Source: Bacteroidales bacterium
GTDB lineage: Bacteria; Bacteroidota; Bacteroidia; Bacteroidales; CAIWKO01
NCBI GenBank assembly: GCA_035389045.1
Contig: DAOORA010000024.1
Location: 1 to 54,632 of the forward strand
DNA: 54,632 bases
Direction: 5' to 3'
A program made the position numbers. Below, in pieces: positions 33,001 through 36,000 of the stretch (positions are counted from its first letter, which is position 1; each line of letters opens with the position of its first letter).

Positions 33001-36000
33001 CTTTGTTTGGGCATTTGCCTGACGCCAGATTTTTAAGGTTAGGTCCATAATTTTAGTTTATTTATCAGCCAAAAGCCATCAGCCATCAGCCATTATTTTT
33101 CATATTATTGATTACTGTCCAATTTATTTATTAAAGAGTTAATCATTTTCGATAGTGATGATATTTTATTGAAAATATCTTCACAATTTTCTTTTAAATA
33201 TCCAACTTTATTTGCAATAATTAATTCTGTTTCCAACTCATACAGGGATCCTCTGGCTTGTTTCAAAAATAAAGAATATGATTTCGTTGAATTCCTACCC
33301 CATCCTTCTGTAATATTTATTGGCACTGAACTGGATGCACTTCTTACCTGAGCTGTAATTCTATGACGTTCTTCCACCGGAAAATCCTTACTCAATTTAT
33401 AAATATCAACAGTCAGTTCAATGCCAAGCTGCCATATTTTTAAATCTTTGTACGAATTTATATTTCCCATATTGTTTTTAAGGCTCAAATATATTTTATA
33501 ATGTCTTATTTATCGGTGCTCATGACTATTGGCTATTGGCTATTGGCTATTGGCTATTGGCTATTTATAACTCCTCTGCGATGGTTTTGCAACCTCAAAA
33601 GTAAGTTCTTCCTTGTGCAATTCAGGTTCTGTACCTTCGCCTTTATATTCCCATGCCGACACAAATGTAAAGTTCTCATCATCACGTTTTGCTTCGCCTT
33701 CTTCGGTTTGCATTTCCTCGCGGAAGTGTCCTCCGCATGATTCTCGGCGCTGCAGGGCATCTTTCATGATCAGTTCACCCAGTTCGATAAAATCAGCTAC
33801 CCTGCTTGCTTTTTCGATTTCAGGATTAAAATCATTCAGTTCACCGGGGATGAACAGGTCGTTCCAGAATTCTTTTTTAATTTCGGGTATCATGGCCAGG
33901 CCTGCCTTCAGCCTTTCCTCTGTGCGTCCCATGCCACAGTGCTCCCACATCAGTTTTCCGAATTTCTTATGAATAGAATCAACCGATTGTTTGCCTTTGA
34001 TATTTTTCAGCATTTCGAGCTGCATTTTAATATCATTTTCAGCCTGTACAAATTCAGGGGCATCGGTCGGTATCCTCTTGGTATGTATTTCGGCTGACAA
34101 ATAATTCCCGATGGTATAAGGCAGAATAAAATAGCCGTCGGCGAGGCCCTGCATCAGTGCTGATGCGCCAAGCCGGTTAGCTCCGTGATCGGAGAAATTA
34201 CATTCACCAATGGCATAAAGGCCCGGAACTGTTGTCATCAGGTCATAATCAACCCAGAGTCCACCCATGGTATAATGTATGGCCGGATAGATCATCATAG
34301 GGGTTTCATAAGGGTTTTCATCAATAATCTGTTCGTACATCTGGAAGAGATTACCATAACGCTCTTCGATAACATTTTTTCCAAGCCGTGCTATAGAGTC
34401 TTTGAAATCGAGGTAAACCGCCAGGCCGGTACGGCCAACACCAAAACCGGCATCGCAGCGTTCTTTGGCGGCACGTGATGCCACATCGCGGGGTACGAGG
34501 TTTCCGAAAGCAGGATATCTTCTTTCGAGGTAATAATCACGGTCTTCTTCTGAAATATCGGAAGGTTTTATTTCTTTTTTGCGGAGTTTTTCAGCATCTT
34601 CTTTCTTTTTTGGCACCCATATCCTGCCGTCGTTACGCAAGCTTTCACTCATCAGGGTAAGTTTCGACTGGAAATCCCCGTGCACAGGGATACATGTCGG
34701 GTGTATCTGTGTAAAACAGGGATTGCTGAAGAATGCGCCTTTTTTATAAGCTCTCCATACAGGAGTGGCATTGGATCCCATAGCATTGGTTGACAGGAAA
34801 TAGGTATTGCCATAGCCGCCGGTTGCCAGCACAACGGCATGTCCGAAATATTTTTCTATTTCTCCGGTTACTAAGTTCCTGACAATGATACCGCGTGCTT
34901 TGCCGTCAATAAGGACTATATCAAGCATATCGCGGCGGTTGTAAAGTTTAACGGTGCCTTTTTTTATCTGGCGGCTCAGGGCGCCGTATGCGCCAAGCAA
35001 CAACTGCTGGCCGGTTTGTCCGCGTGCATAAAAAGTACGTGATACCTGGGCGCCGCCAAACGAACGGTTGTCAAGCAATCCGCCATAATCCCGGGCAAAA
35101 GGCACGCCCTGTGCCACACACTGGTCGATGATGGCATTGCTGACTTCGGCAAGACGGTATACATTGGCCTCGCGAGCACGATAATCGCCGCCTTTTATCG
35201 TATCGTAAAACAAACGGTAAACGCTGTCGCCGTCGTTCTGATAATTCTTTGCTGCGTTGATCCCGCCCTGTGCGGCGATACTATGCGCACGACGGGGACT
35301 GTCCTGATAACAAAACACTTTCACATTATATCCCAACTCGCCCAGAGATGCGGCAGCCGAAGCTCCGGCAAGGCCGGTACCCACTATAATAATATCAAGT
35401 TTACGTTTGTTGTTGGGATTGACTAATTTACAGGTTGATTTATAATTTGTCCATTTTTCAGCTAAGGGACCTTCAGGAATTTTTGAGTTTATTTTTGTCA
35501 TAGCTGCCGGGGGATTTAATTTTGATTTTAAAATACTAAGATCTTTATATGTAAAAAATTTATACTAACAAATTTTAACTGTAGAAAAACATGAAATAAA
35601 CCGGGATCAGCGAAAAACCACCTGCGACCACAATGGCATAAATCAAACTGACGGCTTTTATGGCCTGGTTATATTTACTATGATTCAGCCCTAAAGTCTG
35701 ACAACCGGATAGTATGGCGTGATTTAGATGAAAGCCGAGAAAAATAAAAAAGGCAATGTACAAAAATGAATAAACTTTATTCTGAAATAACAGGATCGCC
35801 ATTTGGTAAAAATCATGAGTGTCCATTCCTGCAGGTGGTTGTACTATACCTGCTTTAATGAAAAAGAAATGCATAAAATGAAGGATCAGAAAGATGAAAA
35901 TAATTGCTCCCGTATATATCATATACTTTGAGAAAAACTCAGTATGTGATTTATTGACAACATGATAACGTACAGGACGGGAAGCCCAGTTTTTCAATGT

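What a model noticed while it worked through the whole genome (the two positions that open the first line are those of the whole stretch)
33049..33563. Four-helix-bundle gene cassettes bracketed by inverted heptamer arrays inside core operons
Fourteen small genes of two unrelated families (9 of the 23S-rRNA-IVS/Avd-like four-helix-bundle family PF05635, 5 GxxExxY PD-(D/E)XK genes, Pfam PDDEXK_3) sit in the spacers of core operons (sdhA|sdhB, rnfB|rnfC, atpD|atpC, por subunits, serC|serA, an hdrA-like operon) and are bracketed by short tandem repeats (6-10 nt units) whose two arms are inverted copies of each other, each cassette with its own unit. I read them as an undescribed class of selfish, IVS-like insertion cassettes of mRNA operons: the arms pair into a long slippery stem with the ORF in the loop (a likely RNase III site, as in rRNA intervening sequences), and their decay leaves the many solo heptamer/octamer arrays of this [...]
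Evidence so far: Flanks read directly: g01628 C24:33105-33470 between sdhA and sdhB, (AGCCAAT)x5 from the sdhA stop codon and (TGGCTGA)x4 downstream; g01941 C32:22147-22512 rnfB|rnfC; g02737 C64:22218-22634 atpD|atpC; g01431 C20:6291-6662; g02300 C45:10456-10821 with >60 GGAGTTG upstream, AACTCAA x6 downstream; g02428 C49:31215-31565; GxxExxY genes g00797 and g00801 (C10:30811-31188, 35004-35381) inside a DsrE-TusA-FlpD-HdrA-like operon with CGCAAAG-type arms; g01551, g03052, g03214. Arrays (period 6-10, >=3 copies) within 150 nt on both sides: 4 of 9 PF05635 genes against 1 of 3417 other genes; on at least one side 6 of 9 against 85 of 3417. Upstream-downstream RNA duplex energy against 30 shuffles: z <= -3 [...]
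(Added by a program. Inside this text positions count along the whole contig: contig position 1 is position 1 of the stretch shown here. "Call 12" and the like, gene names such as g00115 and contig names such as C1 are that model's own, and its searches are not shown. The text may have been shortened before it was handed on; [...] marks where a part breaks off. The agent that wrote the report below was given it as the finding of a first reader that could run no searches.)

Follow-up and report, generated by a model that had tools for sequence, protein, structure and literature searches.

The report
Hairpin-bracketed small-gene cassettes in operons
A small four-helix-bundle gene wedged between two succinate dehydrogenase genes is framed by mirror-image short repeats, and it is one example of a widespread, laterally exchanged gene cassette built like the intervening sequences of ribosomal RNA genes.

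Summary
In the window (minus strand) a 121-aa PF05635 gene fills the sdhA|sdhB spacer. (AGCCAAU)x5.7 starts at the sdhA stop codon, and (UGGCUGA)x4 ends 15 nt before the sdhB start. The two arms pair as a 24-bp stem in the predicted RNA fold (z = -4.1).

In this genome, 11 of 14 PF05635/PDDEXK_3 genes have strongly inverted flanks, against 59 of 3037 other ORFs. The three strongest of those others are IS200-like Y1 transposase genes.

The same layout recurs in 5 sister genomes (matched arms beat all six foreign arms in 45 of 74), in 30 genomes of the phylum, and in at least ten other phyla. Cassettes are almost always sense-oriented inside operons (83 against 2) and are under purifying selection.

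They are present or absent at orthologous sites, sometimes leaving arm remnants. Paralogues at new sites keep their arm type. One cassette is 99% identical between two species whose flanks are about 75% identical.

What I could not show: RNase III cleavage, transcription, or how the cassettes move. Mismatches in the arms show no G·U bias, so selection at the RNA level is unproven. I found no prior description. Verdict: a new variant of IVS/MITE-like elements, of high interest.

The parts
33561..35501 (-). sdhA-like flavoprotein gene, upstream host gene. Its stop codon TAG (33561-33563) is part of the first repeat unit of the upstream arm.
   Evidence: ORF list; Pfam FAD_binding_2 1.4e-56 and Succ_DH_flav_C 8.4e-36; sequence.
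33526..33565 (-). Upstream arm: (AGCCAAU)x5.7 in the RNA sense. The predicted 5' strand of the stem is 33537-33563.
   Evidence: TRF period 7, 5.7 copies, 100% matches; paired in the MFE and centroid fold.
33471..33525 (-). A/U-rich leader of 55 nt between the arm and the ATG of the cassette gene.
   Evidence: Sequence. Over 80 cassettes the median distance from arm to ORF start is 24 nt.
33105..33470 (-). Cassette gene: 121-aa four-helix-bundle protein of family PF05635/TIGR02436. An alternative TTG start at 33488 gives 127 aa.
   Evidence: PDB 2gsc E = 2.7e-20; dN/dS 0.05-0.13 against orthologues in G007 and G010.
33064..33093 (-). Downstream arm: (UGGCUGA)x4 in the RNA sense, the imperfect inverted complement of the upstream arm. 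The predicted 3' strand of the stem is 33066-33092. It ends 15 nt before the sdhB start.
   Evidence: TRF period 7, 4.3 copies, 82%; fold.
32281..33048 (-). sdhB-like iron-sulfur subunit gene, downstream host gene.
   Evidence: Pfam Fer2_3 5e-23 and Fer4 families.

Best explanation
The 515-nt sdhA|sdhB spacer is one self-contained insertion cassette. It consists of a promoterless small gene (a PF05635 four-helix-bundle protein) framed by two arms of short tandem repeats that are inverted complements of each other.

The cassette lies in the sense orientation and fills the spacer from the stop codon of sdhA to just before the start of sdhB. It is most likely transcribed with the operon. In that transcript the arms zip into a stem of about 24 bp. 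The stem puts the ORF in a loop and brings the sdhA stop and the sdhB start next to each other. This is the layout of ORF-bearing 23S rRNA intervening sequences, which RNase III cuts in the stem.

I read the arms as the device that makes the insertion tolerable to the host operon, by processing or structural bypass. I read the cassette as a long-lived but laterally exchanged selfish or semi-selfish element. It shares this architecture with cassettes carrying GxxExxY PD-(D/E)XK nuclease genes. Spread most likely goes through recombination in the conserved flanking core genes. That would explain both the preference for core operons and the re-use of the same sites.

Shown: the anatomy, its statistics, its conservation across phyla, the orientation bias, purifying selection, presence/absence, co-inheritance of arms, and one identity island.

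Inferred: co-transcription, formation of the RNA stem in vivo, RNase III cleavage, the route of transfer, and what the two proteins do.
For: Anatomy in the window. In the predicted fold, 33537-33563 pairs with 33066-33092 in both the MFE and the centroid structure (dG -120.5, z = -4.08, 0 of 100 shuffles as good).

Genome-wide specificity:
- 11 of 14 cassettes against 59 of 3037 other ORFs have inverted flanks.
- A blind scan from 242 arrays for an inverted partner 120-900 nt away found 6 loops. Five are these cassettes, and the sixth is an ORF adjacent to one.

Generality:
- 74 cassettes of 6 genomes of the genus: matched-arm duplex median -40.3, against -26.4 for foreign arms and -30.2 for the direct-orientation control. 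Matched arms beat all six foreign arms in 45 of 74 (about 10.6 expected), p = 1.4e-15.
- 30 genomes of the phylum: 12 of 30, p = 8e-7.
- 77 loci including Omnitrophota, Pirellulales, Ignavibacteria, a cyanobacterium, Patescibacteria, Anaerolineae and Verrucomicrobia: 35 of 77 lie above the 95th percentile of mismatched pairs.

Placement (80 of 103 cassettes with arms): medians are stop to arm +2 nt, arm to next start 7 nt, and whole spacer 551 nt.

Orientation: the cassette is co-directional with both neighbours in 83 of 104 and opposed to both in 2.

No terminator-like site lies on the minus strand within the spacer. G000 carries an RNase III gene.

dN/dS is 0.04-0.36 in the 11 pairs that could be computed. 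Only 8 of 123 PF05635 places in the genus have internal stops.

Uncoupled history:
- The sdhA|sdhB spacer holds the cassette in 4 of 14 genomes of the genus. It is 26-33 nt in 3 and 67-129 nt in 7.
- Of 36 syntenic sites, 16 are occupied and 20 empty in G000, some with arm remnants.
- Paralogues at different sites keep the arm type.
- The rnfB|rnfC cassette is 99% identical between G000 and G010, while the flanks are 77% and 73% identical (dS 0.027).
- At other sites the ORF is 16-21 points less similar than the flanks.

Layout and size match the Coxiella IVS (PMC4990558).
Against: No RNA-specific signature. Transition mismatches in the arm alignments are not biased toward G·U in the sense strand (IVP 144 against 170, PDX 50 against 48). 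Sense and antisense duplex energies are equal.

Covariation among orthologues is weak overall. Matched pairs average -43.0 and cross pairs -37.9 (p = 0.007), and the signal is clear only at one site.

About a fifth to a third of cassettes have weak or no arms: 23 of 103 score below 30. C45:11853 and its four orthologues have none.

No transcript data could be obtained. No target duplication or recombinase was found. The sdhAB tree is unresolved, so gain and loss at this site cannot be told apart.

The stem has an A·A mismatch every 7 nt. Whether RNase III would cut it is unknown.
Confidence: 0.55

Rival explanations
1. A DNA-level element of the foldback, MITE or homing type. The arms are the recombination ends of the element, acting as hairpins or a cruciform in DNA, and the encoded proteins work on them. 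The GxxExxY PD-(D/E)XK protein would be the nuclease that cuts or resolves them, or that cuts empty alleles. The four-helix-bundle pentamer would bind the repeats. Pairing in RNA would be incidental. This overlaps with the best explanation and could be true together with it.
For: - No G·U bias and no difference between strands.
- The PDDEXK_3 cassettes have conserved outer ends, TTTTA|ACC(A/G)C...G(T/C)GGT|TAAAA. ORF-less mini-hairpins of the same arm type also occur: 12 short opposed cluster pairs in G000 against 1 in the reversed-sequence control, and they sit next to cassettes in other genomes.
- Catalytic D67, E77 and K79 and the GxxExxY motif are invariant in 16 sequences.
- The model (pLDDT 95.3) resembles Cas4, lambda exonuclease and Hjc Holliday-junction resolvases, though weakly (best E = 2.8e-3, TM 0.4-0.5).
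- Relatives of one PDX gene are 74-90% identical in Chitinophaga, Spirosoma, Pedobacter, Brocadiaceae, Lentisphaera, Cloacimonadota and Marinimicrobia records. SdhB is only 66-75% identical within the order.
- The strongest inverted flanks among other genes belong to 3 IS200-like Y1 transposase genes, which have the same gene-between-its-own-repeats layout.
Against: - The orientation bias of 83 against 2 is not expected of a DNA transposon, unless expression from the operon is needed.
- PF05635 has no known catalytic fold.
- Arm sequences differ between PF05635 lineages, so there is no common end to recognise.
- No target-site duplication was seen.
- Near-identical multi-copy families were not seen within a genome. 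The best same-genome pairs are 74% identical.
Confidence: 0.3
2. Domesticated operon parts. The small proteins serve the host, for example as RNA-binding regulators or a housekeeping nuclease. The arms are a host regulatory structure for translational coupling, mRNA stability or protein binding sites. Presence/absence would then reflect ordinary gene loss.
For: - Purifying selection.
- Long residence at the same site across genera, for example 8 phylum loci at one thioesterase|thiolase junction.
- Sense orientation.
- The stem base sits exactly at the stop and start codons.
Against: - Host operons are unrelated in function: sdh, rnf, atp, por, ser, etf, a DNA methylase, adhesins.
- Close relatives do without the cassette, with clean 26-33 nt spacers.
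- Cassette and flank divergence disagree in both directions.
- Copy number runs from 2 to 15 per genome within one genus.
Confidence: 0.1
3. Coincidence. Heptamer and octamer arrays are simply common in the intergenic DNA of this lineage, and small genes happen to sit among them.
For: The genome holds 242 arrays of period 6-10 with at least 3 copies. Many are solo, and some lie at contig ends. Intergenic heptamer arrays are in print (PMC4679880, abstract and section 10 read).
Against: - Arrays on both sides: 5 of 9 PF05635 genes against 3 of 3037 others.
- Arms are specific to their own partner.
- The blind scan recovers the cassettes.
- The direct-orientation control is weaker than the inverted one.
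Confidence: 0.02

Closest known systems
ORF-bearing intervening sequences (IVS) of 23S rRNA genes (Coxiella burnetii; Leptospira as cited there)
   Same: The same protein family (PF05635, 'S23p') sits in the loop. The size is similar (428-444 nt there, 444-541 nt at sdhA|sdhB). Terminal inverted repeats form a stem of about 24-28 bp. The element is inserted in the sense orientation into a highly expressed, conserved transcription unit. Distribution is sporadic, and horizontal transfer is inferred. Sources: PMC4990558 passages.
   Different: The host is an mRNA operon spacer, not rRNA helix 45; no Rfam rRNA match was found. The arms are tandem arrays of 6-10-nt units. The protein is under purifying selection, whereas the Coxiella ORF is described as decaying. 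RNase III cleavage is shown there and untested here.
Correia repeat enclosed elements (CREE/NEMIS) and other bacterial MITEs
   Same: Both are intergenic insertions with terminal inverted repeats. When co-transcribed they form mRNA hairpins that bind or are cut by RNase III. Both show presence/absence between strains. Source: PMC2649163, passages read.
   Different: MITEs are non-coding, exist as many near-identical copies, and have defined target duplications. These cassettes carry a conserved gene, each lineage has its own arms, and no duplication was seen.
REP sequences with REP-associated IS200-like Y1 transposases (RAYT)
   Same: A small gene sits between inverted copies of the repeats it is associated with. 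In G000 the three strongest inverted-flank scores among other ORFs are Y1_Tnp genes. ORF-less copies of the PDDEXK_3 arm type are dispersed.
   Different: The proteins are unrelated (no Y1_Tnp). The RAYT flanks here are ordinary REP hairpins unlike the arms. That RAYTs mobilise REPs is recalled, not read here.
Free-standing homing endonuclease genes between conserved genes (recalled from the phage literature; no paper read here)
   Same: A small nuclease gene lies in a spacer between conserved genes. Presence and absence occur at the same site. There is an island of near-identity with short spill-over into the flanks. The same site is re-used by divergent cassettes.
   Different: Cleavage of empty alleles is untested. 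The PF05635 cargo is not a nuclease fold. Homing genes are not known to be framed by inverted tandem arrays.
Intergenic heptamer direct repeats (TAACTGA arrays of Beggiatoaceae, Cyanobacteria, Bacteroidetes)
   Same: Both are short tandem arrays of 7-nt units in intergenic DNA, often ending at a start codon. Copy number is variable and distribution across phyla is patchy. Source: PMC4679880, abstract, section 10 and term search read.
   Different: That paper treats direct repeats of one unit. It does not mention paired inverted arrays, four-helix-bundle genes or IVS: searches of its text gave 0 hits for 'intervening' and 'S23', and no relevant hit for 'helix'.
Avd accessory protein of diversity-generating retroelements
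   Same: The protein superfamily is the same. PF05635 is described as resembling Avd (PMC10053308 passage).
   Different: No reverse transcriptase (RVT_1) was found in this 96.3%-complete genome. There is no template or variable repeat context.
Eukaryotic foldback transposons (recalled, not read)
   Same: They have long inverted arms made of short tandem subrepeats of variable copy number, sometimes with coding DNA in the loop.
   Different: They are eukaryotic and have different enzymes. This is a resemblance only.

Membership tests
PF05635 / TIGR02436 four-helix-bundle protein (23S rRNA IVS protein family) | Profile match above the curated cut-off over the full domain | tested here: met
   PF05635 110.4 bits (cut-off 33.8), profile positions 1-106 of 106. 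TIGR02436 107.3 bits (cut-off 24).
PF05635 / TIGR02436 four-helix-bundle protein (23S rRNA IVS protein family) | Four-helix-bundle fold, homopentamer | tested here: inconclusive
   Sequence match to solved chain 2gsc_A, E = 2.7e-20, over residues 8-117. No model was built here. The pentamer is known only from the description in PMC4990558.
23S rRNA intervening sequence (IVS) | Inserted within a 23S rRNA gene (helix 25 or 45) | tested here: not met
   The cassette sits between sdhA and sdhB. No rRNA match in 32000-36500 at E <= 1. None in 20 loci of other phyla.
23S rRNA intervening sequence (IVS) | Complementary termini forming a stem that encloses the element, with the ORF in the loop | tested here: met
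   A 24-bp interrupted stem, 33537-33563 with 33066-33092, in the MFE and centroid folds; z = -4.08.
23S rRNA intervening sequence (IVS) | Excised from the transcript by RNase III without ligation | not testable with these tools
   An RNase III gene is present (C17:42736-43113).
DGR accessory variability determinant (Avd) | Encoded next to a DGR reverse transcriptase with template and variable repeats | tested here: not met
   No RVT_1 match in the genome at 96.3% completeness. The neighbours are sdhA and sdhB.
MITE (e.g. Correia element) | Terminal inverted repeats | tested here: met
MITE (e.g. Correia element) | Non-coding, and many near-identical copies per genome | tested here: not met
   The cassette carries a conserved ORF. 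The best same-genome protein pairs are 74% identical. Arm units differ between cassettes.
MITE (e.g. Correia element) | Target-site duplication | tested here: inconclusive
   None is evident when occupied and empty sites are compared. The A/T-rich palindromic borders would hide a short one.
PDDEXK_3 / GxxExxY PD-(D/E)XK nuclease family (the second cargo) | Profile match, GxxExxY motif and D...ExK catalytic residues | tested here: met
   5 intact genes score 110-150 bits against a cut-off of 22. G22, G24, E27, Y30, D67, E77 and K79 are invariant in 16 sequences. The model has pLDDT 95.3 and its nearest folds are Cas4, lambda exonuclease and Hjc, at weak E-values.
Free-standing homing endonuclease gene | Presence/absence at one conserved site, with cassette history uncoupled from the flanks | tested here: met
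   One strong identity island (99% against 77% and 73%), three milder ones, and about nine pairs where the ORF is 11-21 points less similar than the flanks, out of 29 pairs.
Free-standing homing endonuclease gene | The encoded enzyme cleaves the cassette-less allele | not testable with these tools
The PF05635 cargo has no nuclease fold.
Integron gene cassette | A single attC hairpin at the 3' end of the ORF, in an array next to an integrase and attI | tested here: not met
   The arms lie on both sides of the ORF, and single cassettes sit inside operons. An integrase was not searched for.
REP/RAYT | The gene between the repeats is an IS200-like Y1 transposase | tested here: not met
   The cassette ORFs are PF05635 or PF13366. 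The Y1_Tnp genes are separate loci with different repeats.

The most novel reading that the evidence does not exclude
There may be a cross-phylum class of foldback-type homing cassettes in which the cargo proteins act on their own tandem-repeat arms. The GxxExxY enzyme would be a minimal, Hjc-like nuclease that cuts the cruciform or hairpin, or the empty allele. The PF05635 pentamer would bind the repeated units in RNA or DNA. Together these drive lateral spread into the spacers of conserved operons. On this reading, the ORF-bearing IVSs of rRNA genes are simply the rRNA-resident members of the class. The enigmatic intergenic heptamer and octamer arrays of Bacteroidota, Cyanobacteria and Beggiatoaceae would be largely the arms and footprints of such cassettes.
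Probability: 0.25. Interest if true: 0.9.

Novelty: new variant of a known kind. Interest (0 to 1): 0.78.

Why it matters
Two very large protein families of unknown function would get a genomic context that explains their odd distribution. PF05635 was found in 155 of 201 sampled genomes of this phylum. The GxxExxY/PDDEXK_3 query found more than 413 relatives.

The ORF-bearing rRNA intervening sequences, known since the 1990s, would stop being a curiosity of rRNA genes. They would become one habitat of a general cassette type.

At least part of the unexplained intergenic heptamer arrays would have an origin.

The finding also gives directly testable predictions: RNase III ends in the arms, nuclease activity on arm DNA, and protein binding to repeat units. 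These can be tested in culturable Bacteroidota. It is also a natural example of how a 0.5-kb insertion can sit inside essential operons (sdh, atp, rnf, por) without breaking them.

Tried and rejected
- Raw duplex energy of 150-nt flanks against all genes. It was only weakly discriminating, because coding flanks pair well by chance (median -38). PDX gave p = 1.5e-4 and IVP p = 0.017. I replaced it with matched against mismatched arms and with DNA alignment scores.
- A link between the arms and the REP-associated transposases. I rejected it because the RAYT flanks are unrelated REP hairpins.
- A DGR/Avd reading. I rejected it because no reverse transcriptase was found.
- A tree of SdhA+SdhB to decide gain against loss of the sdh cassette. 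It came out unresolved: 8 of 12 inner branches were open.
- A G·U against A·C test for selection at the RNA level. It showed no signal.
- Cross-pairing among orthologues as a covariation test. It was weak.
- Rfam search. No family matched.
- The promoter and terminator scan showed nothing above shuffles for promoters, and no minus-strand terminator in the spacer.
I used single proteins instead.
- Literature. Searches found no paper describing PF05635 or GxxExxY genes framed by inverted tandem arrays in operons. These cover only open-access PubMed Central and bioRxiv full text. Subscription journals and family-database comment texts were not visible.
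Full report
WHAT IS THERE

On the minus strand of the window lie an sdhC-like membrane gene (35575-36237), sdhA (33561-35501), a 121-aa ORF (33105-33470) and sdhB (32281-33048). 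The small ORF is a full-length member of PF05635/TIGR02436, the four-helix-bundle family first seen inside 23S rRNA intervening sequences. Its nearest solved relative is 2gsc (E = 2.7e-20).

Tandem Repeats Finder reports two period-7 arrays in the spacer. One is at 33526-33565 (5.7 copies, 100% matches; AGCCAAU in the RNA sense). The other is at 33064-33093 (4.3 copies; UGGCUGA). The first unit of the upstream array contains the TAG stop of sdhA. The downstream array ends 15 nt before the ATG of sdhB.

Folded as RNA, 33537-33563 pairs with 33066-33092 in both the minimum-energy and the centroid structure. The stem has 24 base pairs with an A·A mismatch every seven positions and encloses the whole ORF (dG -120.5 kcal/mol, z = -4.08, 0 of 100 shuffles as good). 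No terminator-like site lies on the minus strand in the spacer, promoter-like sites are not enriched, and no Rfam family matches.

IS IT MORE THAN CHANCE?

The genome (135 contigs, 41% G+C) has 9 PF05635 places. It also has 5 intact PDDEXK_3 (GxxExxY) genes, one degraded copy and one fragment. I read all flanks and confirmed the neighbours by Pfam: rnfB|rnfC-like, ATP synthase beta, POR subunits, serC|serA-like, DsrE|TusA, HdrA-like, homoserine dehydrogenase|AOR, fumarase|Dtd and BatD.

I made a crude gene set of 3157 ORFs of at least 80 aa. Of these, 3051 have full 150-nt flanks.
- Arrays on both sides: 5 of 9 PF05635 genes, 0 of 5 PDDEXK_3 genes and 3 of 3037 others.
- Arrays on at least one side: 7 of 9, 2 of 5 and 161 of 3037.
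- The PDDEXK_3 arms are longer, less regular units that TRF misses. A plain inverted-repeat alignment of the two flanks scores 38 or more in 11 of 14 cassettes against 59 of 3037 others (p = 1.4e-16).
- The three best-scoring other genes are IS200-like Y1 transposases, a class known to sit between inverted REP repeats. They serve as a positive control.
- A blind scan that started from the 242 arrays and asked for an inverted partner 120-900 nt away found six loops. Five are these cassettes. The sixth is a 174-aa two-helix membrane ORF directly upstream of the C49 cassette. This also explains why the C49 cassette appears to have direct arms.

HOW GENERAL IS IT?

PF05635 and PF13366 occur in 18 of 18 genomes of the genus, at 2-15 and 1-8 places per genome. 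I fetched 60 cassettes: all listed places of G010, G014, G015 and G009 other than the sdh copy of G010, plus 3 places of G008. Nearly every one has an upstream array and an inverted downstream array, with a unit of its own.

Over 74 cassettes, the duplex energy of a cassette's own arms has a median of -40.3 kcal/mol. Arms of other cassettes give -26.4, and the same locus in the direct orientation gives -30.2. Own arms beat all six foreign partners in 45 of 74 cases (about 10.6 expected; p = 1.4e-15). By family this is 25 of 50 for PF05635 and 20 of 24 for PDDEXK_3.

In a sample of 201 genomes of the phylum, 155 carry PF05635. In the 30 best loci, from 30 genomes, the same architecture holds (12 of 30 beat all six; p = 8e-7).

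Relatives of the window protein in named public records include Flavobacteriaceae, Omnitrophota, Pirellulales, Ignavibacteria, a cyanobacterium (Okeania), Patescibacteria, Saccharibacteria, Anaerolineaceae, Smithellaceae and Verrucomicrobia. Of 77 loci with full flanks, 35 exceed the 95th percentile of mismatched pairs: 19 of 48 labelled Bacteroidota and 16 of 29 others. None of 20 such loci lies in an rRNA gene.

ANATOMY ACROSS CASSETTES

Of 103 cassettes, 80 have arms (alignment score of 30 or more). The medians are:
- end of the upstream gene to arm start: +2 nt (49 of 69 within 10 nt or overlapping)
- arm to cassette start codon: 24 nt
- cassette stop to downstream arm: 9 nt
- arm end to next start codon: 7 nt (59 of 71 within 40 nt)
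- whole spacer: 551 nt

When paired, the stem base therefore puts the host stop and the next host start side by side.

The cassette is co-directional with both neighbours in 83 of 104 cases and opposed to both in 2. I take this as the strongest indirect sign that it depends on operon transcription.

The proteins are maintained. dN/dS is 0.04-0.36 in the 11 orthologous pairs that could be computed; three pairs were saturated. Only 8 of 123 PF05635 places in the genus have internal stops. One of those 8 is the G008 copy at sdhA|sdhB.

ARE THEY MOBILE?

(i) The sdh site. Among 14 genomes of the genus in which both genes were found, the sdhA|sdhB spacer holds the cassette in 4 (G000, G010, G008, G007; proteins 73-84% identical). 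It is 26-33 nt in 3 and 67-129 nt, with other arrays or hairpins, in 7. None of 11 more distant genomes has it. In all four occupied genomes the sdhA stop is the TAG of the first repeat unit, while the three genomes with 26-33-nt spacers use TAA. The SdhAB tree is unresolved, so gain and loss cannot be told apart here.

(ii) Orthologous sites. Of the 60 cassettes in relatives, 36 have syntenic flanks in G000. Sixteen of these sites are occupied and 20 (13 distinct sites) are empty. The empty sites vary:
- some are clean (etfB|etfA)
- one keeps both arms around about 170 nt of non-coding DNA (C9:33864-34291)
- one keeps part of one arm (C68)
- one keeps a solo array (C83:3383-3435)
- two hold arrays of another type

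(iii) Paralogues at different sites share the arm type. One example is the AATGTTCAAT arms of the rnfB|rnfC cassette and of two other sites, with proteins 70% identical within one genome. The two PDDEXK_3 clades have CNCARAG-type and CACATAG/CACTAAG-type arms.

(iv) The rnfB|rnfC cassettes of G000 and G010 are 99% identical in the ORF (dS 0.027). The flanking genes are 77% and 73% identical. The island starts in the upstream arm and fades about 60-100 nt beyond the downstream arm.

(v) Over 29 same-site pairs, four have the ORF at least 10 points more similar than the flanks once the three C49-site pairs, whose upstream flank does not align (40-44%), are set aside. About nine have it 11-21 points less similar. 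At the leuC-side site, flanks are 91% and 78% identical but the ORF only 65%, with entirely different arms. Cassette and flanks thus have partly separate histories, at fixed sites.

(vi) Relatives of one PDDEXK_3 gene are 74-90% identical in records labelled Chitinophaga, Spirosoma, Pedobacter, Brocadiaceae, Lentisphaera, Cloacimonadota and Marinimicrobia. SdhB is 66-75% identical within the order. Of 77 of these loci, 47 have at least two CNCANAG units upstream and at least two CTNTGNG units downstream, with ends AACCGCAAAG...CTTTGCGGTT and ORF-less mini-hairpins nearby.

In G000 such unit clusters are twice as frequent as in the reversed-sequence control (135 against 64). Short opposed pairs number 12 against 1. 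Arm-only matches to the rnf cassette are scattered through sister genomes.

I found no target duplication and no recombinase.

HOW IT MOST LIKELY WORKS

The anatomy is that of an ORF-bearing rRNA intervening sequence. It has the same protein family, the same size, and a terminal stem with the ORF in the loop. In Coxiella that stem is cut by RNase III in the middle (PMC4990558, passages read). Neisserial Correia elements show that inverted-repeat insertions in mRNAs are RNase III substrates (PMC2649163, passages read). G000 has an RNase III gene.

My best reading (0.55) is a promoterless, co-transcribed cassette whose arms make it tolerable to the operon by forming a stem, either processed or acting as a structural bypass. 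It is exchanged laterally by recombination in the conserved flanking genes.

Against the RNA part of this reading:
- Transition mismatches in the arms are not enriched for G·U in the sense strand (144 against 170, and 50 against 48).
- Sense and antisense energies are equal.
- Covariation among orthologues is weak.

A DNA-level reading is a serious rival or complement (0.30). In it the arms are recombination ends or a cruciform, the GxxExxY protein is the nuclease, and the pentamer is a repeat binder. The GxxExxY proteins keep G, E, Y, D and ExK invariant. They fold with high confidence (pLDDT 95.3) into a minimal PD-(D/E)XK nuclease. Its nearest solved folds are Cas4, lambda exonuclease and Hjc resolvases, at weak scores.

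A DGR/Avd role is excluded by the lack of a reverse transcriptase. A link to the REP transposases is excluded by their different repeats.

WHAT IS KNOWN

In print are:
- PF05635 ORFs inside rRNA insertions (PMC4990558; PMC11270868 passages)
- the family's likeness to Avd (PMC10053308 passage)
- PDDEXK_3 as a family of unknown function with multiple transfers (PMC3424549, one table row)
- intergenic heptamer direct repeats (PMC4679880; abstract, section 10 and term search read; no mention of helix-bundle genes, IVS or paired inverted arrays)

Eight full-text searches found no description of these genes as cassettes framed by inverted tandem arrays in mRNA operons. That statement covers open-access PubMed Central and bioRxiv only. 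The likeness to free-standing homing endonuclease genes, foldback transposons, STRR repeats and REP/RAYT biology is recalled, not read.

VERDICT

The cassette concept and lateral exchange are supported. The RNase III and RNA-stem mechanism is plausible but unproven. The origin of solo arrays from decay is only partly supported. I rate it a new variant of a known kind (IVS- or MITE-like insertion elements), of high interest because it ties together two large families of unknown function, rRNA intervening sequences and intergenic heptamer arrays.

Noticed in passing
G000 contig C49:30250-31195 (locus L119:1251-2196); not in the window: A third kind of cargo. A 174-aa ORF (C49:30425-30949) with two predicted membrane helices and no Pfam match lies between (AGGCTGTT)x2-3 and the long (CTAACAGC)n array, directly upstream of the C49 PF05635 gene. 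The two adjacent cassettes share the middle array, which is why the PF05635 gene there seems to have direct arms.
   Followed up: partly
Loci L093 (G186) and L097 (G090), around positions 1300-2000: In two genera of the phylum, a PF05635 cassette with its arms sits inside a DNA methyltransferase gene. The DPxCGSGTT motif lies upstream, and about 150 aa of conserved C-terminus continue downstream in an open frame with no obvious start. The gene is split as 23S rRNA is split by an IVS.
   Followed up: partly
G000 C32:22044-22607 (L122:1545-2108) against G010 C48:26828-27347 (L040): The rnfB|rnfC cassette is 99% identical in the ORF between two species whose flanking genes are 73-77% identical. 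The arms differ only by whole repeat units.
   Followed up: yes
G000 C23:2380-2943, C36:25813-26373, C28:18218-18787: Three IS200-like Y1 transposase genes (RAYT-like) are flanked by classical REP hairpins. They have the strongest inverted flanks in the genome outside the cassettes.
   Followed up: partly
G000 C22:47300-48160 (L126): The PDDEXK_3 cassette next to the fumarase gene is partly duplicated in tandem. A 3' fragment of the gene with its own arms precedes the full copy.
   Followed up: no
G000 contig ends: C59:1-283, C56:1-143, C31:1-58, C121:1-42, C10:92931-93076: Very long heptamer and octamer arrays (up to about 40 copies of GGAGTCG-type or CTAACAGC-type units) sit at contig ends. 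They probably break the assembly, so array and cassette counts are lower bounds.
   Followed up: no
G000 C45:9871-10405 (L121): More than 60 copies of GGAGTTG-type heptamers lie upstream of the serC|serA cassette, against 6 inverted units downstream. The arm lengths are extremely asymmetric.
   Followed up: no
G000 C45:11853-12296 and its orthologues L038, L050, L066, L081: One PF05635 lineage (145-155 aa, between serA-like and DUF1015 genes) has no arms in any of five genomes, and its ORF is more diverged than its flanks. It may be an old, armless resident.
   Followed up: partly
window 36316-36376: An imperfect 25-27-nt tandem duplication (2 copies, A/T-rich) lies just upstream of the sdhC-like gene.
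   Followed up: no
G000 C35:6292-6646: CGCAAAG-type and inverted CTCTGCG-type clusters are separated by a 308-nt loop with no called ORF of at least 80 aa. This may be a decayed PDDEXK_3 cassette.
   Followed up: no
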